Source: Eledone cirrhosa
Taxonomy: Eukaryota
Reading direction: 5' to 3'
Assembly: GCA_964016885.1 (NCBI GenBank)
Contig: OZ024741.1
Location: 117,304,001 to 117,368,000 of the forward strand
Length of the DNA: 64,000 nucleotides
Shown: in pieces, positions 7,362 to 63,693 of the stretch
How positions within the stretch are numbered: the first letter of the stretch is position 1
Layout of the letters: every line of letters begins with the position of its first letter
Notes under the pieces: generated by a model
What the model saw: the letters and a program-made list of their open reading frames with translations, nothing else
What the model was told of the DNA's origin: nothing
Databases searched by the model: none
Position numbers and translations under genes: made by a program

Positions 7362-9185
7362 ATCTCTAGTGATTTTAATCCGGCACTGATTCCTAGTGTT
7401 TTTAATCCGGCCTTAAAATGGAGGATTTTTTTAGCACCATTGAATTATTTCAGTAGAGCAAGTTTATAAGAGGCGATAGGTGGCGAATTGACCAGTCGTT
7501 AGAACGTTAAATAGAATGTTTTGTGCTATATGTTCTTTGTGTCTTTAATCCGGCACTGATCTCTAGTGTCTTTAATCCACTTGATAAGGAAGATATGTTT
7601 AGTACATTTCAATTATATCATTAAAGTTAGTTTATGATGAGAGGCGATAGGTGGCGGCACTGATAACTAGTGACTGTAATCCGACACTGATCTCTCGTGT
7701 ATTTAATCCGACACTGAACCCTGATATATTTATTCCGGCATTGATTTCTAGTGTTTTTTATCTGGCACTGATCTCTAATGTCTTTAATCCGGCACTGATC
7801 TCTAGTGTTTTTAATCCGGCACTCATCTCTAGTTTCTTTAATCCGGTACTACCATCTGTTATTTTTAATCCGAAACTGATTTCTAGTCATTGATCTCTAG
7901 TGTAATACGGCACTAATCTCAGGTGTCTTTAATCCAGCACAGATCCTTAGTGTCTTTAATTCGGCACTGATCTCTAGTGTCGTTAATCCGGCAGTTACTT
8001 CGTGTTTTTAATTCGGCACTGAACACTAGTGTATTTAATCCGACTTTAATATCTAGTATCTTTTATCCGGCACTGGTACCTAGAGTATTTAATCCGGCAC
8101 TGATCCTTCGTGTATTTTATCTGACAGTGAAACCTAGTATCTTTAATCCGATACTGATCACTATTATCCTTAATTAGGCACTGATCACTAGTATATTTAA
8201 TCCGTTATTTAACTCTGTTATTTTTTACCCGGCACTGAACCCTAATATTTTAAATCCGGCTCTTATCACCAGTATCTTTAATCCGGCAAAGATCTCTTGT
8301 GTTTTTAATCAGACACTGATATCTAGTGTTTTTAATCCGCCACTGATCCCTAGTTTATATAGTTCGGCACTTCTCCTTCTTTTAATTCGACACAGACCCG
8401 CAGTATCTTTAATCCGGCACTGATCCCTAGAGTCTTTAATCCGGCCTGAGAGATGATAGACGGTATAATACTGAGGAGATAAGATAGAAAGTAGAAGTTA
8501 GACCAGAGAAGATAGACTGTAGAAGATATTTTCTACAATCTACCGCCATCTATCATTTCACGTCTTTCTTTTACCGTCTAGTATGTTTAATCCGGCACAC
8601 ATCCCAATTATTTTAAATTCGGCACTGATCCTATTTTATTTAATCCGGCACTGATCTCTAGTATCTTTCTTTAATCCAACTCTGATCACCAGTATCTTTA
8701 ATCCGGCAAAGATCTCGTGTTTTTAATCTGGTACTGATCACTAGTTTATTTAATCCGACATTTCATTTTATTTTTAATCCAGCACTAGTATCTTTAATCC
8801 GACATTAATCTCTAGTACCTTTAATCCGGCACAGATATCTTGTGTTATTAATCTGGCACTGATATCTAGTATGTTTAATCCAGCACTGATCTTTAATTCA
8901 TTTAATTCGGCACACATCTCTATTATTTTGAATCCGGCATTAATCACTAATATCTTTAATCCGACAATGATCTCTAGTATCTTTAATCCGGCACTTAATT
9001 CAATTATTTTTAATCCGGCACTGATCCTAATATCTTTAACCCAGCAAAAATCTCTTCCGTTTTTAATAAGGCATTGATCCTGGTTTGTTTAATCCGGCAC
9101 TGATCCGTAGTGTCTCTAATCTGGCACTGATCATTAGTAACTTTAATCCGACACTAATCACTAGGATCTTTAATCCGGAACTAAT
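7336..9185 (+). repeat. interrupted ~27-bp minisatellite (TTTAATCCGGCACTGATCTCTAGTRTC)
   Basis: Degenerate tandem blocks at about 7336-7412, 7540-7578, 7655-8445 and 8580-9185. Confidence 0.9.
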
Positions 9186-9923
9186 CCCCCCACTAACCCC
9201 CTCCCCCCAACAAAACCCGAAAGGGGTGAAAATTATCACGTGGCTAGTGGTGAAGATAGAAGTGTTGTGAAGGGTAGACTGGTGATCAGTAAGTTCATTG
9301 CTATAAGAAGCAGTTAGTTACCGCTTAAATTTACTCAATCGTAAAGGAGTTAGAACAAAGTCATAAGGAACACATATATATTTAAACATAAGCATATTTA
9401 TATGAATATACATATATATATTTTATACATACATACATATATATATATACATACATATTATTATTATTATGCTTTATTGCACAGGTACCATTTGACTTTT
9501 ACTTTGAAGTTTATTATTAGTTGGTTCGTCAAAGTTCTTTCGTAACACATTCTGTGACTACCTCAAAGACTATTGTTTCTTCTGTGCCTCTTCTTCTTTC
9601 TGGTTTTATTTTGTTTACTCCATCTCGTCTTTCTATTGTCGTTTTCTTGCCTTATGTGCTTTTGTGTCTGCGCCTGAGTGTTTTGCTTTGTGTATATATG
9701 CATTGTGTGTGTGTGTTTGTATATTTCAATGTTTGAGCCTTCCTATTTTGTTTGCCTTATGTGTCCTATCCTGTCTTATATCGTTGGTTTGTTGGCTGGG
9801 GTTGTTACTATTCTATTTGAGTCTTCTGTTGAAGCTCGATCTACTTTATATTATGTGTGTGGTCTCCGTAATTTGTGTGAGTATTGTGTCGGTTGTATAT
9901 GTGGATAAGATCTTAATTTTTAT

Positions 9924-20268: not shown

Positions 20269-20615
20269 TTATATAGTAGAATAATCGAGTATCGAAAAAT
20301 CGGCGCACGAGTTCACGATAAACAAAATTCGACATGAGTGGCAGAGGGCTCAATAATTCAGATAAATCAGAGCTATAACTATCGTTAAAATACCAACACA
20401 CATAGATTATGTCTAAAATCAACCATACGACCGAAAAATTACGATCAGGAAGATTCGGGTCACTCAGATAAAATATCAATAAATCAATAAATCATATGAA
20501 TGTAAAAAGCTTACCCGGACCCACTAGAAAGATGGTAAATCTAGCTTCTTGGGTTTCTGTAAATCCTTAAATCGCCCACTATCAGCCCACATAAAAATAT
20601 ATAAGACTTCTAGAG

Positions 20616-21170
20616 GGAAAAAGTATGACCCCGAGCAGAGCTCAAGCCGTTTCGACAGCTATTTCCTGGACGTTACCCTTAACCTCGAAAATGATCTGTA
20701 CTACCCATACAGAAAACCAAACGACAACCTGCACTACATCCACCGCCGCTCTAACCTTCCTAGAAACACCACCAATAACCTGGCATCACCAATAAACATC
20801 TCCCTCCGCATATCTCGTTTGTCCGCTAATGAGCAGATATTCGACGAACACGCCGCTCATTACAACCAGGCCCTCAAGCGGAGTGGCTTCCGGGAGGAAA
20901 TATCCTTTTATCCAGCTTCCCTTAGCGGAACCAGCAGGCGACACCCCCGCTCGCGCAACGTTGCGTGGTTCAATCCTCCCCAAAATGTCGAGGTGGCAAC
21001 ACCTATCGGGAAAGAAGAAAGTTAAGTAAAAAAAGAGTAGTCCAGAAATAGCCGTCGAAACGGCTTGAGCTCTGCCGTCGGGGTCATACTTTTTCCTATT
21101 TCCCACTCTACTACCCTAAGTATTGAGTACTCTGGTGCGTTATGGTCCATCTGGTTCCTTACCATAATTC
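20616..21170 (+). mobile_element. Penelope-like element remnant: RT thumb fragment between inverted termini
   Basis: FLDVTLNLENDLYYPYRKPNDNLHYIHRRSN.P...ISLRISRLS..EQIF......YNQALKRSGF...RNVAWFNPP (20660-21022); inverted arms 20616-20671 and 21040-21096; ends at (TA)n. Confidence 0.85.
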
Positions 21171-43601: not shown

Positions 43602-46600
43602 TATCACGTCATACTCCCCACACCTTTATCACGTCATACACCCCACACCTTTATCACGTCATACACCCTACACCTTTATCTCGTCATACACCCCACACCT
43701 TTATCACATCATACACCCCACACCTTTATCACGTCATACACCCAACACCTATATCACGTCATACACCCCACACCTTTATCACGTCATACACCCCACACCT
43801 ATATCACATCATACACCCCACACCTATATCACGTCATACACCCCACACCTTTATCACGTCATACACCCCACACCTTTATCACGTCATACACCCCACACCT
43901 TTATCACATCATACACCCCACACCTTTATCTCGTCATACACCCCACACCTTTATCACATCATACACCCCACACCTATATCACGTCATACACCCCACACAT
44001 TTATCACATCATACACCCCACACCTATATCACGTCATACACCCCACACCTATATCACGTCATACACCCCACACCTTTATCACGTCGTACACCACACACCT
44101 ATATCACGTCATACACCCCACACCTTTATTACGTCATACACCCCACACCTTTTTCACATCATACACCCCACACCTATATCACGTCATACACCCCACACCT
44201 TTATCACGTCATACTCCCCACACCTATATCACGTCATACACCCCACACCTTTATCACGTCATACACCCCACACCTATATCACGTCATACACCCCACACCT
44301 TTATCACGTCATACACGCCACACCTATATCACGTCATACACCCCCACACCTTTATCACATCGTACATCGCACACCTATATCACATCATACACCTCACACC
44401 TTTATCACGTCATACACCCCACACCTTTTTCACATCATACACCCCACACCTATATCACGTCATACACCCCACACCTTTATCACGTCGTACATCCCACACC
44501 TTTTTCACATCATACACCCCACACCTATATCGCGTCATACACCCCACACCTTTATCGCGTCGTACATCCCACACCTTTATCACGTCATACATCCCACACC
44601 TTTATCACATCATACACCCCACACCTATATCACGTCATACACCGCACACCTTTATCACGTCATACCCCCCACACCTTTATCACGTCATACACTCGACACC
44701 TTTATCACGTCCTACACCCCACACCTTTATCAAGTCATACTCCCCACACCTTTATCACGTCATACACCCCACACCTTTATCACGTCATACACCCCACACC
44801 TTTATCACGTCATACACCCCACACCTTTATCACGTCGTACACTACACACCTTTATCACGTCATACACCCCAACCCTTAATCACGTCATACACCCCACACT
44901 TTTATCACGTCATACATCCCACACCTTTATCACGTCGTATCCCCCACACCTTTATCACATCGTACACCCCACACCTTTATCACGTCATACACCCCACACT
45001 TTTATCACGTCATACATCCCACACCTTTATCACGTCATACACCCCACACCTTTATCACGTCATACACCACACACCTTTATCACGTCGTACACCACACACC
45101 TTTATCACGTCATACATTGCAAATCTTTATCACGTCGTACCACCCACAACTTTATCACGTCATACATCCCACACCTATATAACGTCATGCACCCCACACC
45201 TTTATCACGTCATACACCCCACACCTATATTACGTCATAACCCCACACTTTTATCACGTCGTACCCCGCACACATTTATCACGTCGTACATCCCACACCT
45301 TGATCACGTTGTACACCACACACCTTTATCACGTCATACACCCCACACATTTATCACGTCGTACACCCCACACCTTTATCACGTCATACACCCCACACCT
45401 TTATCACGTCATACACCCAACACCTATATCACGTCATACACCCCACACCTTTATCACATCATACATCACACACCTATATCACGTCATACACCCCACACCT
45501 ATATTACGTCATACACCCCACACCTTTATCACGTCATACACCCCACACCTATATCACGTCATACACCCCACACCTTTATCACGTCATACACCACACACCT
45601 TTATCACGTCATACACCCCACACCTTTCTGACGTCTTACATCCCACACCTATATCACGTCATATATCCCACACCTATATTACGTCATACACCCCACACCT
45701 TTATCACGACATACACCCCACACCTTTATCACGTCATACACCCAACACCTTTATCACGTCGTACACCTCACACCTTTATCACGTCATACACCCCAGACCT
45801 TTATCACATCATACATCGTACACCCCACACCTATATCACATCATCCACCCCAAACCTATATCACGTCATACACCCCACACCTTTATCACGTCATACACCC
45901 CACACCTTTATCACGTCATACATCCCACACATTTATCACGTCGTACACCCCACACCTATATACGTCATACACCCCACACCTATAATACGTCATACACCCC
46001 ACACCTTTATCACGTCATACACCCCACACCTTTATCACGTCGTACACCCCACACATTTATCACGTCATACACCCAACACCTTTATCACGTCGTACACCCC
46101 ACACCTTTATCACGTCATACACCCCACACCTTTATCACGTCGTACATCCCACACCTTTATCACGTCATACATCCCACACCTTTATCACATCATACACCCC
46201 ACACCTATATCACGTCATACACCCCACACCTTTATCAGGTCATACCCCCCACACCTTTATCACGTCATACACCCGACACCTTTATCACGTCCTACACCCC
46301 ACACCTTTATCACGTCATACTCCCCACACCTTTATCACGTCATACACCCCACACCTTTATCACGTCATACACCACACACATTTATCACGTCATACACCCC
46401 ACACCTTTATCACGTCATACACCGCACACCTTTATCACGTCGTACATCCCACACCTTTATCACGTCGTAGATCCCACACCTTTATCACGTCATACATCCC
46501 ACACCTTTATCACATCATACACCCCACACCTATATCACGTCATACACCCAACACCTTTATCACGTCGTACACCTCACACCTTTATCACGTCATACACCCC

Positions 46601-49600
46601 AGACCTTTATCACATCATACATCGTACACCCCACACCTATATCACATCATCCACCCCAAACCTATATCACGTCATACACCCCACACCTTTATCACGTCAT
46701 ACACCCCACACCTTTATCACGTCATACATCCCACACATTTATCATGTCGTACACCCCACACCTATATACGTCATACACCCCACACCTATAATACGTCATA
46801 CACCCCACACCTTTATCACGTCATACACCCCACACCTTTATCACGTCGTACACCCCACACATTTATCACGTCATACACCCAACACCTTTATCACGTCGTA
46901 CACCCCACACCTTTATCACGTCATACACCCCACATCTTTATCACGTCGTACATCCCACACCTTTATCACGTCATACATCCCACACCTTTATCACATCATA
47001 CACCCCACACCTATATCACGTCATACACTCCACACCTTTATCAGGTCATACCCCCCCACACCTTTATCACGTCATACACCCGACACCTTTATCACGTCCT
47101 ACACCCCACACCTTTATCACGTCATACTCCCCACACCTTTATCACGTCATACACCCCACACCTTTATCACGTCATACACCACACACATTTATCACGTCAT
47201 ACACCCCACACCTTTATCACGTCATACACCGCACACCTTTATCACGTCGTACATCCCACACATTTATCACGTCGTAGATCCCACACATTTATCACGTCAT
47301 ACATCCCACACCTTTATCACATCATACACCCCACACCTATATCACGTCATACACCCCACACCTTTATCACGTCATACCCCCCACACCTTTATCACGTCAT
47401 ACACCCGAGACCTTTATGACGTCCTACACCCCACACCTTTATCACGTCATACTGCCCACACCTTTATCACGTCATACACCCCACACCTTTATCACGTCAT
47501 ACACCACACACCTTTATCACGTCATACACCCCACACCTTTATCACGACATACACCCCACACCTTTATCACGTCGTACACTACACACCTTTATCACGTCAT
47601 ACACCCCAACCCTTAATCACGTCATACACCCCACACTTTTATCACGTCATACACCACACACCTTTATCACGTCGTACACCACACACCTTTATCACGTCAT
47701 ACATCCCACACCTTTATCACGTCGTACCCCCCACACCTTTATCACATCGTACACCCCACACCTTTATCACGTCATACACCCCACACTTTTATCACGTCAT
47801 ACATCCCACACCTTTATCACGTCATACACCCCACACCTTTATCACGTCATACACCACACACCTTTATCACGTCGTACACCACACACCTTTATCACGTCAT
47901 ACATCGCAAATGTTTATCACGTCGTACCCCCCACAACTTTATCACGTCATACATCCCACACCTATATAACGTCATACACCCCACACCTTTATCACGTCAT
48001 ACACCCCACACCTATATTACGTCATACCCCCACACCTTTATCACGTCGTACCCCGCACACATTTATCACGTCGTACATCCCACACCTTTATCACGTTGTA
48101 CACCACACACCTTTATCACGTCATACACCCCACACATTTATCACGTCGTACACCCCACACCTTTATCACGTCATACACCCCACACCTTTATCACGTCATA
48201 CACCCAACACCTATATCACGTCATACACCCCACACCTTTATCACATCATACATCACACACCTATATCACGTCATACACCCCACACCTTTATCACGTCATA
48301 CACCCCATACCTATATCACGTCATACACCCCACACCTTTATCACGTCATACACCACACACCTTTATCACGTCATACACCCCACACCTTTATCACGTCTTA
48401 CATCCCACACCTATATCACGTCATATATCCCACACCGATATTACGTCATACACCCCAAACCTATATCACGTCATACACCCCACACCTTTATCACGTCATA
48501 CACCCCACACCTTTATCACGTCATACATCCCACACATTTATCACGTCGTACACCCCACACCTATATACGTCATACACCCCACACCTATAATACGTCATAC
48601 ACCCCACACCTTTATCACGTCATACACCCCACACCTTTATCACGTCGTACACCCCACACCTTTATCACGTCATACACCCAACACCTTTATCACGTCGTAC
48701 ACCCCACACCTTTATCACGTCATACACCCCAGACCTTTATCACATCATACATCGTACACCCCACACCTATATCACATCATCCACCCCAAACCTATATCAC
48801 GTCATACACCCCATACCTTTCTCACGTCATATATCCCACACCTATATCATGTCATACACCCCACACCTATATCACATCATCCACCCCAAACCTATATCAC
48901 GTCATACACCCCATACCTTTCTCACGTCATACATCCCACACCTATATCACGTCATACACCACACACCTTTATCACGTCGTACACCCCACACCTTTATCAC
49001 GTCATACATCCCACACCTTTATCACGTCATACATCCCACACCTTTATCACGTCATACCCCCACACCTTTATCACATCATACATCACACACCTTTATCACG
49101 TCATACATCCCAAACCTTTATCACGTCATACACCCCACACCTTTATCACGTCATACCCCCACACCTTTATCACATCATACATCACACACCTTTATCACGT
49201 CATACCCCCACACCTTTATCACATCATACATCACACACCTTTATCACGTCATACATCCCAAACCTTTATCACGTCATACCCCCACACCTTTATCACATCA
49301 TACATCCCACACCTTTATCACGTCATACACCCCACACCTTTATCACGTCATACACCCCACACCTTTATCACGTCATACATCCCAAACCTTTATCACGTCA
49401 TACACCCCACACCTTTATCACGTCATACACCCCACACCTTTATCACGTCATACATCCCACACCTTTATCACGTCGTACACCCCACACCTATATACGTCAT
49501 ACACCCCACACCTTTATCACGTCATACACCCCACACCTTTATCACGTCGTACACCCCACACCTTTATCACGTAATACACCCCATACCTTTATCACGTCAT

Positions 49601-50497
49601 ACACCCCACACCTATATCACGTCATACACCCCACACTTTTATCACGTCGTACATCCCACACCTTTATCACGTCATACACCCCACACCCTTATCAGGACAT
49701 ACACCCCACACCTTTATCACGTCATACACCCCACACCTATATCACGTCATACACCCCACACCTATATCACGTCATACACCCCACACCCTTATCAGGACAT
49801 AGACCCCACACCTTTATCACGTCATACACCCCACACCTATATCACGTCATACACCCCACACCTTTATCACGTCATACACCCCACACCCTTATCAGGACAT
49901 ACACCCCACACTTTTATCACGTCATACCCCCACACCTATATCACGTCATACATCCCACACCTTTATCACGTCATACACCCGACACCTTTATCACGACATA
50001 TATCCCACACCTATATCACGTCATACACCCCACACCTTTATCACGTCATACCCCCACACCTTTATCACATCATACACCCCACACCTTTATCACGTCATAC
50101 CCCCACACATTTATCACGTCATACACCCCACACCTTTATCACGTCATACCCCCACACCTTTATCACATCATAGACCCCACACCTTTATCACGTCATACCC
50201 CCACACCTTTATCACGTCATACATCCCACACCTTTATCACGTCATACACCCCACACCTATATCACGTCATACACCCCACACCTTTATCACGTCATACATC
50301 CCACACCTATATCACGTCATACACCCCACACCTTTATCACGTCATACATCCCACACCTTTATCACGTCATACACCCCACACCTATATCACGTCATACATC
50401 CCACACCTTTATCACGACATATATCCCACACTTATATCACGTCATACACCCCACACCTTTATCATTACATATATCCCACACTTATATCACGTCGTAC
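43602..50497 (+). repeat. 25-bp satellite array (TTTATCACGTCATACACCCCACACC)n, ~6.9 kb
   Basis: Continuous tandem array of about 275 units (length/25). Confidence 0.98.
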
Positions 50498-50611
50498 AAC
50501 ACACCCCATACATCATTCACTACACATCAGTCACTAAGCATTATACGTCAAACACATCACGCTGCATATGACACATAAACGGGCAAGTATCTCATATGAT
50601 GATGATAATAA

Positions 50612-52004: not shown

Positions 52005-52690
52005 GGCATACGTTAAGACGGGCGTCCCGGAGAGTGAAAGTAAATTTATTTTCATTTTCGAACGTCGTGTTTACATTTTGTGTGTGTGTTTAGATCTAAA
52101 TTAGTGTCGTTTTAACTGATTATATATATATATGTATATGTGTGTGTGTGTGTAGTTGACGGTTGAGAGAAGAGTACTCAATACCGAAGTAATCTTGTAA
52201 TGAGGCTTGCAGAATGGTGAGTCCGACATTCTAGACGCTGCTGCCTTGTAGAAGTCCCAAATCGAAGCTCTGACACTCTCGTCCCCATCATTCAGCAGGG
52301 ATTTTGCCAGGCTGCCGCATCATCTCCGATGGTTAGGCTTCCTATTTGGAAATTGAAGGTGGGATTTACGTTCATGATGTTGTGGTGCACGAACGGAACT
52401 TTGTAGATCCTGCGGACCTTGATGTGCACACACAGCTCATAAAGAACACATGGAGCCGTGCAAAGAAGAAGCTTCGTCGCCAGCATGTGCAAGCCTCATT
52501 ACAAGATTACTTCGGTATTGAGTACTCTTCTCTCAACCGTCAACTACACACACACACATATACATATATATATAATCAGTTAAAACGACACTAATTTAGA
52601 TCTAAACACACACACAAAATGTAAACACGACGTTCGAAAATGAAAATAAATTTACTTTCACTTTCCGGGACGCCCGTCTTAACGTATGCC
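52005..52690 (+). mobile_element. Merlin (IS1595/ISXO2-like) DNA transposon deletion derivative
   Basis: About 205-bp TIRs (52005-52211, 52488-52690) starting GG; 9-bp TSD GAGCCTTTT; internal VPNRSSDTLVPIIQQ/ILPG..IISDG*..Y/H.VV.HERNFVDP...VHTQ.I.NTWSRAK. Confidence 0.9.
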
Positions 52691-53232: not shown

Positions 53233-53292
<60 letters not shown>

Positions 53293-53473
53293 ATATATAT
53301 GTATGTATATATGTATATATATATATGTATGTACATATGTATATATATGTATATATGTAAATGTGTATGTATATATATGTTTTTATATATAAATACACAT
53401 GAAGGCGAACTAGCCAGTTTTAGAATCCCCTTTTTCGGACTATATTACTGTGAGAGCCCTGGTTTTCTGTTGA

Positions 53474-53555
53474 GCTCTGCTGATGAATGATATTCCAACC
53501 GTGACCATCTCCACTGAAAGTTTTCATGAAATAGTCTTTTAAGACTATACAGAGC
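53474..53555 (+). ncRNA. type I hammerhead ribozyme motif (copy 1)
   Basis: gctctg CTGATGA atga...tcat GAAA tagtctt-tt-aagacta TA cagagc. Confidence 0.88.
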
Positions 53556-54102
53556 ATTTGATGTTATTCCAAATTGAAGGATAAGTGTTTCAAACTTTGT
53601 TTTATCATGAGTTAAAGGTCTATAGATTTTTCCATGGATTTTACTAAATTCTGTGGATGAATTTGTATCCTGATTCTCTTTTGAGATGAGTTTGAGTTAT
53701 TTTTCCTAAATCTTTCATTAACTACTTTTCCCATCTTGACGTTATAGTCGCATATATGTTATAGAATGCCGTTAGCTTCTTGCTAAAACAATCTCTATAC
53801 GTCTCATTTATATTTATACTCGGATTCTTTTCCTAGAGTGCTTAAACTATCTGTGACTAATCCCGGTTTTTTTCATAAAAACTGTGATAATTATTGCTAT
53901 TTTGCTGAACTCCTTGTAGAGTTTTTTTCAGAATGTATTTGACTGCTATTTCTTGTAAATAAACATTCACTTCCATCCTGACGTCACTAGCCCCGTTTTT
54001 TCCTCATGTGCTTTTTCATAAATACACATGAAGGCGAACTAGCCAGTTTTAGAATCCCCTTTTTCGGACTATATTACTGTGAGAGCCCTGGTTTTCTGTT
54101 GA

Positions 54103-54184
54103 GCTCTGCTGATGAATGATATTCCAACCGTGACCATCTCCACTGAAAGTTTTCATGAAATAGTCTTTTAAGACTATACAGAGC
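54103..54184 (+). ncRNA. type I hammerhead ribozyme motif (copy 2)
   Basis: Identical to 53474-53555, 629 nt downstream. Confidence 0.88.
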
Positions 54185-54554
54185 ATTTGATGTTATTCCA
54201 AATTGAAGGATAAGTGTTTCAAACTTTGTTTTATCATGAGTTAAAGGTCTATAGATTTTTCCATGGATTTTACTAAATTCTGTGGATGAATTTGTATCCT
54301 GATTCTCTTTTGAGATGAGTTTGAGTTATTTTTCCTAAATCTTTCGTTAACTACTTTTCCCATCTTGACGTTATAGTCGCATATATGTTATAGAATGCCG
54401 TTAGCTTCTTGCTAAAACAATCTCTATACGTCTCATTTATATATATATATATATATTTGCGTGTGTATGCGTGTGTATATATTATGCGTATATATATATA
54501 TATATATGGATATATATAGATATGTATATACATACACATATATCCACTCGAGCC

Positions 54555-55202: not shown

Positions 55203-56215
55203 GTGTGTGACAACCACCGTGGTATCACTCTACTATCAGTTATTGGTAAAATCCTTACCAGGACCCTTGTTAATCGTCTGCTAATGTACATTGCACTCAA
55301 CATTCTGCCGGAATCTCAGTGTGGTTTCCGTCTATCGGGGCACTACAGATATGATCTTCACGGCATGGTAGATGCAGAAGTGTAAGGAGAAAGAGTTTGA
55401 TTTGTACAATTGCTTTATTGATCTCACGAAAGCCTTTGACACAGTCTTTACAGGGTTTATACGTTCATTGCAGGATGACATGAGAGCATGGTCTGTGTCA
55501 ATTGTGAGACAGGTGATGCTTGCATATATATATATGTTATCGAGCTACAGGAAGGCTTTTTAACATCCGACGATTCCTCGTTACATCAAAAACTTATATC
55601 ACACTGGTACGCGATCTTCTTTATGCAGACAACTGTGATCTTGTTAGCCACACAGAAGATGACCTGATGGGTTGCTTCTCGGCAGCATGTGATGAATTTG
55701 GGCTGACAATCAGCCTGAAAAAGACAGTCGTGATGCACCAGCTTGGAAAGCCATATATTCCTCCATCTATATCTGTCAAAGTGAAAATATTGATGGTTGT
55801 GGATAAGTTTGTTTACCTGGGTAGAACTCTTCCCAGCACCAGCACCCTTGATGAAGAAGTAAGATACCGGCTGTCTAAAGCTTCCGATGCTTTTGGTAAG
55901 CTGGAAAAGCGCCTGTGATCAGAGTCAGATATCAGTGTGCGCACGAAAGTCGAAGTGTATCAGACATGTGTGCTTACAGTGCTGCTCTATGGATGTGAGA
56001 CATATCCAGCGTCTCGAACGTTTCCACCAACAATGCTCGCGCTCCATCCACAAAATCTGATGGAGGCCTCATACACCAGACACTGATGTGCTGCTGCTGG
56101 CCTGTATGCCAAGCATCGAGAGCATGCTCATGAAACAGCACCTCCGGTGGACAGGTCATACAGTAAGTTCTGTATGGTGAATTGTTGCAAGGCAAACGCT
56201 TATAGTGCAAACCAC
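55203..56215 (+). pseudogene. RTE-clade (BovB-like) LINE reverse transcriptase fragment
   Basis: CDNHRGITLLSVIGKILTR; LPESQCGFR; FIDLTKAFDTV; DLLYADNC; FGLTISLKKT; VDKFVYLG; KAS.AFGKL; disrupted. Confidence 0.93.
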
Positions 56216-58690: not shown

Positions 58691-59171
58691 AGTGGTGGTA
58701 TTGTTGGTTATGGTAGGGGTGCTGTTGTAGTAGGACTTGTGGTGATGATAATGTGCTGTAGCGATAGTAGGGGTGATGGTATTGATAGTAGTTTAGGTGA
58801 TGTTGGTGGTGGTTCTGATGGTAGTGGCAACGATGGCGCTGGTGGTTGTGATAGTGGGTGATAGTGATGGTGGGGATAGTGTTTGTGTTAGTAGTATTGG
58901 TTGGGAGTATTGTAGTGATAATAGTGAGGCTGCCGGTCCTTGTGGGTGTGTCAGGCTGTTGCGGTGCTAGTAATGATGTTGGAGGGGTATACATGTCTGT
59001 GGAATACTCAGCCACTTGCACATTAATTCAACGACTAGGAAGTTCAGTTATTCGAAGAACTGAACACTCATCTTCGAAATCAACGGAGATCCATTTACTT
59101 TTTTGTCTGTGTGAGTGTGTGTGTGTGTATTTGATAATGAATGTGGAGAGGTATGTGTCAATATGCATGTG

Positions 59172-62100
59172 TGTATGTATATAGTGTATGTATATAGTGT
59201 ATGTATACTGTGTATGTATATAGTGTATGTATATAGTGTATGTATACTGTGTATGTATATAGTGTATGTATATAGTGTATGTATATAGTGTATGTATACT
59301 GTGTATGTATATAGTGTATGTATATAGTGTATGTATATTGTGTATGTATATAGTGTATGTATATAGTGTATGTATATAGTGTATGCACATTGTGTATGTA
59401 TATTGTGTATGTATATTGTGTATGTATATTGTGTATGTATATTGTGTATGTATATAGTGTATGTATATTGTGTATGTATATAGTGTATGTATATAGTGTA
59501 TGCACATTGTGTATGTATATAGTGTATGTATATAGTGTATGTATATAGTGTATGTATATAGTGTATGTATATAGTGTATGTATATAGTGTATGCACATTG
59601 TGTATGTATATTGTGTATGTATACTGTGTATGTATATTGTGTAAGTATATAGTGTATGTATATAGTGTATGTATATTGTATGTATATTGTGTATGTATAT
59701 TGTGTATGTATATAGTGTATGTATATAGTGTATGTATATAGTGTATGTATATAGAGTATGTATATAGTGTATGTATATAGTGTATGTATATTGTGTATGT
59801 ATATAGTGTATGTATATTGTGTATGTATATTGTGTATGTATATAGTGTATGTATATAGTGTATGTATATAGTGTATGTATATATTGTATGTATATAGTGT
59901 ATGTATATAGTGTATGCACATTGTGTATGTATATTGTGTATGTATACTGTGTATGTATATTGTGTATGTATATAGTGTATGTATATAGTGTATGTATATT
60001 GTATGTATATTGTGTATGTATATTGTGTATGTATATAGTGTATGTATATAGTGTATGCACATTGTGTATGTATATTGTGTATGTATACTGTGTATGTATA
60101 TTGTGTATGTATATTGTGTATGTATATAGTGTATGTATATAGTGTATGTATACTGTGTATGTATATTGTGTATGTATATTGTGTATGTATATAGTGTATG
60201 TATATTGTGTATGTATATTGTGTATGTATATAGTGTATGTATATAGTGTATGTATATAGTGTATGCACATTGTGTATGTATATTGTGTATGTATACTGTG
60301 TATGTATATTGTGTATGTATATTGTGTATGTATATAGTGTATGTATATAGTGTATGTATATTGTATGTATATTGTGTATGTATATTGTGTATGTATATAG
60401 TGTATGTATATTGTGTATGTATATTGTGTATGTATATAGTGTATGTATATAGTGTATGTATATAGTGTATGCACATTGTGTATGTATATTGTGTATGTAT
60501 ACTGTGTATGTATATTGTGTATGTATATTGTGTATGTATATAGTGTATGTATATAGTGTATGTATACTGTGTATGTATATTGTGTATGTATATTGTGTAT
60601 GTATATAGTGTATGTATATAGTGTATGTATATAGTGTATGTATATAGTGTAAGTATATAGTGTATGTACATTGTGTATGTATATTGTGTATGTATATAGT
60701 GTATGTATATAGTGTATGTACATTGTGTATGTATATTGTGTATGTATATAGTGTATGTATATATTGTATGTATATTGTGTATGTATATAGTGTATGTATA
60801 TAATGTATGTATATTGAGTATGTATACTGTGTATGTATATTGTGTATGTATATAGTGTATGTATATAGTGTATGTATACTGTGTATGTATATTGTGTATG
60901 TATATTGTGTATGTATATAGTGTATGTATATAGTGTATGTATACAGTGTATGTATATAGTGTAAGTATATAGTGTATGTACATTGTGTATGTATATTGTG
61001 TATGTATATAGTGTATGTATATAGTGTATGTACATTGTGTATGTATATTGTGTATGTATATAGTGTATGTATATATTGTATGTATATTGTGTATGTATAT
61101 AGTGTATGTATATAATGTATGTATATTGAGTATGTATACTGTGTATGTATATTGTGTATGTATATAGTGTATGTATATAGTGTATGTATATAGTGTATGT
61201 ATTTAGTGTATGTATATAGTGTAAGTATATAGTGTATGTACATTGTGTATGTATATTGTGTATGTATATAGTGTATGTATATAGTGTATGTACATTGTGT
61301 ATGTATATTGTGTATGTATATAGTGTATGTATATAATGTATGTATATTGAGTATGTATACTGTGTATGTATATTGTGTATGTATATAGTGTATGTATATA
61401 GTGTATGTATATAGTGTATGTATATAGTGTATGTATATAGTGTAAGTATATAGTGTATGTACATTGTGTATGTATATTGTGTATGTATATAGTGTATGTA
61501 TATAGTGTATGTACATTGTGTATGTATATTGTGTATGTATATAGTGTATGTATATATTGTATGTATATTGTGTATGTATATAGTGTATGTATATAATGTA
61601 TGTATATTGAGTATGTATACTGTGTATGTATATTGTGTATGTATATAGTGTATGTATATAGTGTATGTATATTGTGTATGTATATTGTGTATGTATATAG
61701 TGTATGTATATAGTGTATGTATATAGTGTATGTATATTGTGTATGTATATAGTGTATGTATATAGTGTATGTATATTGTGTATGTATATAGTGTATGTAT
61801 ATTGTGTATGTATATAGTGTATGTATATAGTGTATGTATGTATATAGTGTATGTATATAGTGTATGTATATAGTGTATGTATATAGTGTATGTATATTGT
61901 GTATGTATATCGTGTATGTATATAGTGTATGTATATAGTGTATGTATATAGTGTATGTATATAGTGTATGTACATTGTGTATGTATATTGTGTATGTATA
62001 TAGTGTATGTATATAGTGTATGTATATTGTGTATGTATATTGTGTATGTATATAGTGTATGTATATAGTTTATGTATATAGTGTATGTATATAGTGTATG

Positions 62101-62506
62101 TATATAGTGTATGTATATTGTGTATGTATATTGTGTATGTATATAGTGTATGTATATTGTGTATGTATATAGTGTATGTATATTGTGTATGTATATAGTG
62201 TATGTATATTGTGTATGTATATTGTGTATGTATATAGTGTATGTATATAGTGTATGTATATAGTGTATGTATATAGTGTATGTATACTGTGTATGTATAT
62301 TGTGTATGTATATAGTGTATGTATATAGTGTATGTATATAGTGTATGTATATTGTGTATGTATATTGTGTATGTATATAGTGTATGTATATTGTGTATGT
62401 ATATTGTGTATGTATATAGTGTATGTATATAGTGTATGTATGTATATAGTGTATGTATGTATATAGTGTATGTATATAGTGTATATATATAGTGTATGTA
62501 TATAGT
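59172..62506 (+). repeat. 14-bp minisatellite (GTATGTATAT[A/T]GT)n, ~3.3 kb
   Basis: Continuous tandem array with variant units. Confidence 0.98.
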
Positions 62507-62584
62507 GAATAAATATAATGAGATATGTGTATGAGTATGGGGGGTGGCATTGTGGGCGAAGAGCAGACAAATAGAATGGGAGGT

Positions 62585-63533: not shown

Positions 63534-63602
63534 TTTTATATATATATATATATATATATGAAATGCTGTTCGCTTTTTGCTGCACTGTTTTCTATACCTT
63601 CC

Positions 63603-63693
<91 letters not shown>

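What the first reader, a model, noticed from the sequence alone, without database searches (positions are those of the whole stretch)
53389..54442. Youngest-looking candidate: two identical full hammerheads 629 nt apart
The two ~425-bp copies are almost identical. The ribozyme has an intact core, a 6-bp stem I, an extended stem II and a 7-bp stem III, so it could fold as a monomer. A plus-strand transcript would be cut after 53549 and 54178, releasing a 629-nt unit able to circularise. No ORF is evident and the element sits in (TA)n. This is the best candidate for a currently competent retrozyme locus.
Basis: partly seen in the sequence, partly recalled or inferred. Interest (0 to 1): 0.85.

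Follow-up and report, generated by a model that had tools for sequence, protein, structure and literature searches.

The report
Hammerhead retrozyme with single fixed end
This is one young copy of a 629-base non-coding repeat that carries a conserved self-cutting-RNA (hammerhead) motif and sits in thousands of TA microsatellites, nearly always ending at the same base; it is a new member of a known class (animal retrozymes), likely pasted in by a Penelope-type enzyme re-reading one small RNA, but cutting and expression are untested and this copy is not the family's best candidate.

Summary
Observation confirmed: two 425-bp copies (one mismatch) 629 nt apart, each with a type I hammerhead cutting after AUA at 53549/54178. 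It is not an LTR-like pair but 1.67 units of a tandem retrozyme family: 1,028 exact hammerhead matches and 3,492 identical 3' junctions genome-wide. In 70 of 73 sampled insertions the 3' end is one fixed base before (TA)n, 260 nt past the cut site; 5' ends vary and do not pile up at the cut. The hammerhead is the most conserved part, with three compensatory pairs against a ~67% sister family. Both copies here share an allele seen in none of 89 other insertions; 12 of 49 short arrays show such array-wide variants, none partial, favouring one re-read monomer template (circle likely, uncut multimer not excluded). Against 'best candidate': stem II here is weak (4 bp, predicted probability 0.03 versus 0.7-0.8 in other copies), 15 of 73 sampled insertions also have two hammerheads, and no RNA evidence was available. 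Intact Hydra-clade Penelope elements exist in the genome, but no homologous partner was found. The scan has reported other retrozyme families before, here and elsewhere; unlike those, this one has a single end.

The parts
53389..53809 (+). 5'-truncated unit (unit bases 209-629, counting from the base after the fixed end); joins the TA flank through AT microhomology
53810..54438 (+). complete 629-nt unit, ending at the family's fixed 3' end (…CATTT then ATAT)
53474..53555 (+). type I hammerhead 1; predicted cut after 53549 (AUA)
54103..54184 (+). type I hammerhead 2; predicted cut after 54178 (AUA)
53550..54178 (+). predicted cut-to-cut 629-nt monomer; as a circle it folds to -136.5 kcal/mol, z -3.7 against 40 shuffles (minus strand z -3.1)
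   Evidence: RNA itself not observed
53805..53823 (+). unit-to-unit junction: fixed end plus the AT-rich 14 nt after it, unchanged in the ~67% sister family apart from an extra AT; inferred priming / protein-binding site
54385..54431 (+). predicted hairpin just before the fixed end; 9 of 9 subfamily variants fold a hairpin here (z -1.5 to -6.4) but the alignment shows no compensatory pair
53979..53986 (+). TGACGTCA (CRE-like, label recalled); kept in 83-100% subfamilies, lost in the sister family; absent upstream of hammerhead 1
53427..53427 (+). allele C, private to this locus among 90 insertions and present in both copies (also 54056)
53236..53388 (.). left TA/TG microsatellite target
54439..54543 (.). 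right TA microsatellite target; no target duplication other than TA can be seen
63560..63606 (+). 47-nt 3'-end stub of an older subfamily of the same element, between TA runs

Best explanation
The locus is a 1.67-unit insertion of a high-copy, non-coding 629-nt tandem repeat with one conserved type I hammerhead per unit, and it was likely made when a Penelope-like enzyme nicked a TA microsatellite and reverse-transcribed one monomer-length RNA, probably a ribozyme-cut and ligated circle, more than once round from a single fixed start. Shown: unit, family size, one fixed 3' end at TA, variable 5' ends, no excess of 5' ends at the cut site, ribozyme conservation and covariation, array-wide private variants. 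Inferred: plus-strand transcription; slow self-cleavage after AUA; ligation; internal priming 260 nt past the cut site, next to a hairpin, where the RNA continues with AUAU that could pair with the nicked TA strand; copying stops after 50 nt to several rounds and joins the target by TA microhomology; the longest arrays (6-13 units) grew further by local unequal exchange; the enzyme is most likely a Hydra-clade element.
For: Fixed end: 70 of 73 insertions (first 100 of 1,028 matches) end at unit base 627-629, 69 followed by ATAT; 3,492 such junctions genome-wide, control 0. 5' junctions at the cut site number 8 against 20 and 8 at two control sites 23 nt upstream and 58 nt downstream (28 of 36 fetched, all family junctions), so copying runs through the cut site. 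The layout [209-629][1-629] cannot come from tandem duplication inside one unit. Among 49 arrays of 2-4 pieces, 16 private variants are in every covering unit (12 arrays, this one included), 0 in only some, 62 in one; one array has a 599-nt period throughout. Hammerhead region differs at 2/79 bases against 81/541 elsewhere in an 84% copy (Fisher p 0.001); stems I, III 99% and 97% paired over 19 copies, with both-side changes at two stem I pairs and one stem II pair, and the free core base N7 varies U/C/G/A. The 14 nt after the fixed end are unchanged in the sister family. Intact 784-795-aa RT+GIY-YIG frames are in the genome; the one read shows DKT, CxCX5C, CxxC, CxH and an RWR variant of the RWK motif given for Hydra elements, which insert in (TA)n (PMC8557442 passages). 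Internal fixed initiation beside a stem-loop downstream of the hammerhead, with AT-rich targets, is shown in vitro for a Penelope-like element (PMC11167929). Circles are shown for coral, mussel and axolotl retrozymes (PMC7229834).
Against: No RNA data. Stem II of this copy is predicted not to form in the catalytic register, and across the family the stem II closing pair is a standard pair in only 4 of 19 aligned copies. In PMC11167929 ribozyme cleavage was not needed and uncut RNA was the main template; in 10.64898/2026.07.22.740005 only 1 of 9 tested dimers cleaved. Non-autonomous Chlamys elements give multicopy head-to-tail insertions although most Chlamys lack hammerheads. The three compensatory pairs come from essentially one family split, not 25 events. 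'Private' is relative to 90 of several hundred long insertions; partial sharing can only be seen in arrays of 3+ pieces and does occur for non-private alleles (T478C in 2 of 3 units of L015). No A>G editing signal in array-wide variants (3/16 vs 5/62, p 0.35). No homologous autonomous partner found; Penelope hallmarks are weak here (inverted arm in 1 of 73; a tested second end at +89 has 3 matches, control 1).
Confidence: 0.52

Rival explanations
1. Same element and enzyme, but the template is uncut linear multimeric RNA from source arrays; reverse transcription starts internally at the fixed site and the hammerhead acts at another step or only with protein. Array-wide variants come from homogeneous sources or from jumps within one terminally repeated RNA.
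For: Uncut RNA was the dominant substrate for the Anolis element and its ribozyme needed protein (PMC11167929). Weak stem II here and U-U at its base in 30 of 88 hammerheads counted. No 5' excess at the cut site fits this equally. 10 of 35 sub-monomer 5' ends fall in unit bases 190-227, where this locus also starts, which could be a transcript start.
Against: That cluster is not significant once the window position is free (scan P 0.16). No allele shared between arrays repeats at a fixed unit position. 16 array-wide and 0 partial private variants in short arrays need a one-monomer bottleneck.
Confidence: 0.33
2. The fixed end is only inherited: transcripts read into the flanking (TA)n, the (UA)n tail pairs with the target, and any TA-targeting retrotransposon copies from there; nothing internal is recognised.
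For: Every source copy is followed by (TA)n, and tail-target pairing is the usual route for microsatellite-targeting elements (own knowledge).
Against: Does not explain why the 14 nt after the end inside the unit are unchanged across ~33% divergence, nor array-wide variants.
Confidence: 0.07
3. The unit is simply the pseudo-LTR of an autonomous Penelope-like element, left as solo or tandem ends of truncated insertions.
For: Layout (T-rich, hammerhead-like motif 100-260 nt before a TA end) resembles the 3' ends of Hydra-type elements seen in three loci.
Against: Upstream of unit base 1 there is always the previous unit or microsatellite; in 224 family-bearing records of 281, the 4 loci with a same-strand Penelope C-terminus within 1.5 kb upstream all had a TA run between; no DNA similarity to 35 loci of the commonest intact family.
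Confidence: 0.05
4. The duplication is an assembly error or a local tandem duplication.
For: Flanks are long microsatellites; no public contig spans the locus.
Against: The same junction and end recur at dozens of loci with different 5' break points; A-B-A geometry is not a tandem duplication; the copies differ at one base.
Confidence: 0.03

Closest known systems
Metazoan non-LTR retrozymes (Cervera and de la Pena 2020, PMC7229834; passages and Discussion read)
   Same: Non-coding, low-GC tandem units with one type I hammerhead each, dispersed and high-copy, no LTR/PBS/PPT; U-U at the base of helix II has precedent in axolotl HHR_Amex2 (22% cleavage in one hour).
   Different: Unit is 629 nt against 170-400 nt there; 41-nt stem II insert with a conserved loop; one fixed end with TA targeting (the word microsatellite does not occur in that paper's main text); RNA not shown here.
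Vertebrate non-LTR retrozymes as Penelope derivatives (Li, Clavereau and Pollet 2026, 10.64898/2026.07.22.740005; parts 1-3 of 5 read, supplements closed)
   Same: Meets their definition of an active retrozyme (two consecutive units with hammerheads); size within their 51-972 bp; co-occurs with Penelope-like elements.
   Different: They favour monomer insertion then local amplification; here short arrays look inserted ready-made. No homologous pseudo-LTR was found here.
EN+ Penelope-like elements, Hydra clade (Craig et al. 2021, PMC8557442 and its preprint; passages read) and Poseidon PAc (Frangieh et al. 2024, PMC11167929; parts 1-2 of 4 read)
   Same: (TA)n targets, partial tandems with a 5'-truncated upstream copy, hammerhead upstream of a fixed internal start beside a stem-loop.
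   Different: No ORF; one start site instead of two, so no tail; inverted 5' arms rare (1 of 73).
Plant LTR retrozymes (PMC4918200; search listing only, features as summarised in the two papers above)
   Same: Two direct repeats each with a hammerhead, 600-1000-nt predicted circle.
   Different: Type I not type III ribozyme; repeats are tandem units, not LTRs; no 4-bp target duplication; 5' end variable.

Membership tests
Metazoan non-LTR retrozyme | Head-to-tail units with one type I hammerhead each | tested here: met
Metazoan non-LTR retrozyme | Non-coding, low GC, no LTR organisation | tested here: met
   GC 213/629; longest internal frame 83 aa without Met; variable 5' ends
Metazoan non-LTR retrozyme | Dispersed high-copy family with signs of retrotransposition | tested here: met
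   1,028 and 3,492 matches; fixed 3' and truncated 5' ends
Metazoan non-LTR retrozyme | Hammerhead fold under selection | tested here: met
   closing pair of stem II not conserved
Metazoan non-LTR retrozyme | Self-cleavage of the transcript | not testable with these tools
   prediction is unfavourable for stem II of this copy
Metazoan non-LTR retrozyme | Expressed as linear and circular monomer RNA | tested here: inconclusive
   no RNA holder listed; only contigs of runs of unrecorded kind
Non-autonomous Penelope-like element | Partial tandem, fixed 3' end, microsatellite target | tested here: met
Non-autonomous Penelope-like element | Second start site (tail) and frequent inverted 5' arm | tested here: not met
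   3 of 73 other ends, all different; inverted arm 1 of 73; +89 end 3 matches, control 1. Lowers membership, not likeness of mechanism
Non-autonomous Penelope-like element | Sequence similarity to the pseudo-LTR of an autonomous partner | tested here: inconclusive
   none among the elements held; only one family was sampled in depth
Autonomous Penelope-like element | RT + GIY-YIG reading frame | tested here: not met
Plant LTR retrozyme | Type III hammerhead in true LTRs with 4-bp target duplication | tested here: not met
   type I fold; repeats are tandem units; complex target duplication in 2 of 73, both over 50 nt

The most novel reading that the evidence does not exclude
A retrozyme that borrows a Hydra-clade Penelope enzyme but uses only one of its usual two start sites: the enzyme binds the conserved sequence just past a terminal hairpin on a 629-nt RNA circle, primes from the nicked TA strand on the RNA's own AUAU, and rolls from under a tenth of a turn to several turns. 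The family would then be a clean genomic record of rolling-circle reverse transcription and would map the RNA signal that a Penelope enzyme recognises, with a hammerhead variant (open closing pair, long conserved stem II insert) tuned to cut slowly or only with protein.
Probability: 0.3. Interest if true: 0.62.

Novelty: new member of a known kind. Interest (0 to 1): 0.38.

Why it matters
How animal retrozymes get from RNA back into DNA is proposed but, in the papers read, not shown. This family gives a simple test case: one fixed start, a short conserved junction, a graded series of subfamilies (100% to about 67%) and intact candidate enzymes in the same genome. A 120-nt RNA around the junction and one purified protein could tell circle from uncut linear template. 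The single locus is ordinary within its family, and similar families have been reported by this scan many times, which keeps the score moderate.

Tried and rejected
Expression: no RNA holder listed; four runs of unrecorded kind, kept as contigs from one study, hold the family but cannot show ends, strand or circles. Read support for the duplication: the private C allele has an inferred depth of about 16 and 19 in two runs and 0 in the third against about 8 for single-copy flank contigs; too indirect to count. Rfam: no hammerhead match in the window's listed top 150 of 218 hits or in the element. Partner search: one intact Penelope family sampled (150 scored of 38,618 candidates) has no similarity to the unit; 3' ends of about eight other families in flanks were unlike it; a profile search of the genome was not available, so other families, Neptune and Naiad included, are unexamined; two motifs from loose contig ends led to a ~67% sister retrozyme family (218 matches) and a 78% copy, not to a coding element. 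Pfam found nothing in the 784-aa frame, so its clade rests on motifs read by eye. Second end at +89: rejected. 5' cluster as transcript start: not significant. RNA-editing marks: not seen. Covariation in the terminal hairpin: none in the MAFFT alignment of 15. A possible GUUG/CAAC pseudoknot and an inner GUG/CAC helix in stem II are 88% and 93% paired but show no compensatory change. Literature: four searches found no paper on this family or on cephalopod retrozymes; supplements were not read and may list such elements. Look-up of earlier scan findings by this sequence returned nothing.

Full report
Observation. The two copies are real and as described: 53389-53813 and 54018-54442, 424 of 425 bases identical, offset 629. 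Each has a type I hammerhead with a 6-bp stem I, the CUGAUGA and GAAA core, a 7-bp stem III counting the A15.1-U16.1 pair, and AUA before the predicted cut after 53549 and 54178. There is no ORF of note and both flanks are TA-rich microsatellite. Rfam does not detect the motif, probably because of the 41-nt stem II region (inference).

What it is. A search of the own genome scored 40 of 2,365 candidate places and returned head-to-tail arrays of the same 629-nt unit at 96-100% identity. Counted from the base after the common end, the locus is [209-629][1-629]: a truncated unit and a whole one, not a pair of LTRs. An exact 26-mer from the ribozyme occurs 1,028 times, control 0. I took the first 100 of these, on contig 1, as a sample not chosen for structure; they make 73 insertions. 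In 70 of 73 the 3' end is unit base 627-629, in 69 followed by ATAT; the other three end at three different places; 5' ends are scattered; one has an inverted arm. The 3' junction pattern occurs 3,492 times, control 0, and in two searches with end pieces most of the 60 loci fetched were stubs of about 55 nt between TA runs; one lies in this window at 63560-63606. A complex target duplication was seen in 2 of 73. Subfamilies run from 100% to 83%, and a sister family at about 67% has the same unit frame, junction and end. The host is an animal with a 3.0-Gb genome; its repeats look to me like an octopod's, which is recalled and untested.

The ribozyme. In an 84% copy the hammerhead region differs at 2 of 79 bases against 81 of 541 elsewhere (p 0.001); the other 12 diverged units show the same trend but are not independent. 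Over 19 aligned copies stems I and III are 99% and 97% paired; two stem I pairs and one stem II pair change on both sides, essentially at the split between the two families, and the free core position N7 takes all four bases. So the fold is selected. The closing pair of stem II is not: it is a standard pair in 4 of 19. In the 73-insertion sample 34 of 88 hammerheads have A-U and 6 contiguous pairs, 30 have U opposite U or lack the base, 23 have A-U and 4 pairs like this locus, 1 has 5. ViennaRNA gives the catalytic stem II register a probability of 0.03 here, 0.67-0.79 in the 6-bp variants and 0-0.37 in the U-U variants; the AUGA of the core is repeated right after it, which allows a slipped pairing. 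The model leaves out the core's non-standard pairs, so this ranks copies but does not predict inactivity. An axolotl retrozyme with U-U at this place cleaved 22% in one hour (PMC7229834 passage).

How it likely spreads. The fixed end lies 260 nt past the cut site, beside a hairpin that all 9 variants tested can fold (z -1.5 to -6.4, no covariation shown), and the 14 nt after it are unchanged in the sister family apart from an extra AT at the join. This matches internal, fixed initiation shown in vitro for a Penelope-like element on AT-rich targets (PMC11167929, parts 1-2 read). The genome has intact RT plus GIY-YIG frames of 784-795 aa with motifs given for the TA-targeting Hydra clade (PMC8557442 passages), but none that I held resembles the unit, so the partner is inferred. 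Unlike typical Penelope insertions there is no second end: a candidate at +89 has 3 matches against a control of 1; other positions were tested only through the sample of 73.

Circle or not. If cut linear RNA were copied, 5' ends would pile up at the cut site; they number 8 there, against 20 and 8 at control sites with shorter microhomology. The template was therefore ligated, uncut, or jumped end to end. Among 90 insertions at 93% or more identity, 49 have 2-4 pieces; these carry 16 private variants in every covering unit, none in only some, and 62 in one unit (arrays over 4 pieces and the first 14 nt of truncated units left out). This locus is one of the 12: C at 53427 and 54056 occurs in no other of the 90. 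A stricter count on the first 40 arrays, masking homopolymer edges, gave 9, 0 and 35 in 34 short arrays and masked this site. The A-B-A layout cannot arise by tandem duplication within one unit, so both copies most simply come from one monomer read more than once. Four long arrays show partly shared variants, the mark of later local expansion, so array length is no evidence of rolling. Against a circle: uncut RNA was the main template for the Anolis element, hammerhead-poor Chlamys relatives also make multicopy tandems, private means only unseen in a sample, and there is no editing signal. I put circle or re-read monomer at about 0.5 and uncut multimer at about 0.33.

The locus is in the youngest subfamily, but five arrays are closer to its majority sequence, 15 of 73 sampled insertions also have two or more complete hammerheads and 7 have two adjacent stronger ones (my pattern may miss some). 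The upstream copy lacks bases 1-208, including a CRE-like octamer; if that is the promoter, this locus needs outside read-through to release a monomer. That octamer is lost in the sister family, so the promoter is uncertain. No RNA run was listed.

Known and new. It is a member of the metazoan non-LTR retrozymes on all DNA-level criteria (PMC7229834; 10.64898/2026.07.22.740005, parts 1-3 read); RNA-level criteria are untested. Four literature searches found no report of this family. Earlier scan notes describe other retrozyme families in this and other genomes, mostly with two fixed ends and back-to-back arms, some with editing marks (unchecked AI notes used as leads); neither trait holds here. 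The distinctive points are the single end, the conserved sequence beyond it, the long unit and the ribozyme with an open closing pair. Verdict: real, ordinary in kind, useful as a test case; interest 0.38.

Noticed in passing
window 20528-21170: Fragment of a Hydra-type Penelope RT frame (+) joined to pieces of that family's end sequence and a TA run; the family has intact 784-795-aa frames elsewhere, with 38,618 candidate places.
   Followed up: partly
window 5115(-), 5443(+), 13769(+), 22831(+), 25159(-), 25332(+), 28026(-), 31976(-), 56639(+): Short CUGA-N-GA … GAAA motifs that look like minimal hammerheads of other Penelope ends; two pairs are on opposite strands 170-330 nt apart.
   Followed up: no
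window 63560-63606: 3'-end stub of an older subfamily of the same element; such ~55-nt stubs begin at an internal TA-like stretch and seem to be the commonest form of the family.
   Followed up: yes
window 43602-50498, 59171-62507, 7655-9186: Large tandem arrays: 25-nt unit x 276, 13-nt unit x 257, and degenerate 27-nt units.
   Followed up: no
window 52005-52149 and 52546-52690: 145-nt inverted repeats, 97% complementary, 396 nt apart; MITE-like.
   Followed up: no
window 55517-55918: Decayed LINE-type reverse transcriptase fragment right of the element (RVT_1 E 0.055, below cut-off).
   Followed up: partly
L261 (G000:C1:242315600-242319900) and L128: Arrays whose every unit has a changed length (599 nt; 641-642 nt), suggesting a length change fixed in the template before insertion.
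   Followed up: no
L067, L068 (G000:C4): 13-unit arrays with variants shared by alternating or neighbouring units, the pattern of later higher-order duplication.
   Followed up: partly
L071:4440-5100 (-): 3' end of another Hydra-type element next to an array, with a hammerhead-like motif that also has a long insert between the core halves.
   Followed up: no
L124: Target-site duplication of over 50 nt around an insertion.
   Followed up: partly
run X4: A small assembly (88 million letters, kind not recorded) holds contigs of several subfamilies and of the sister family; if it is RNA the family is transcribed, but this could not be told.
   Followed up: partly
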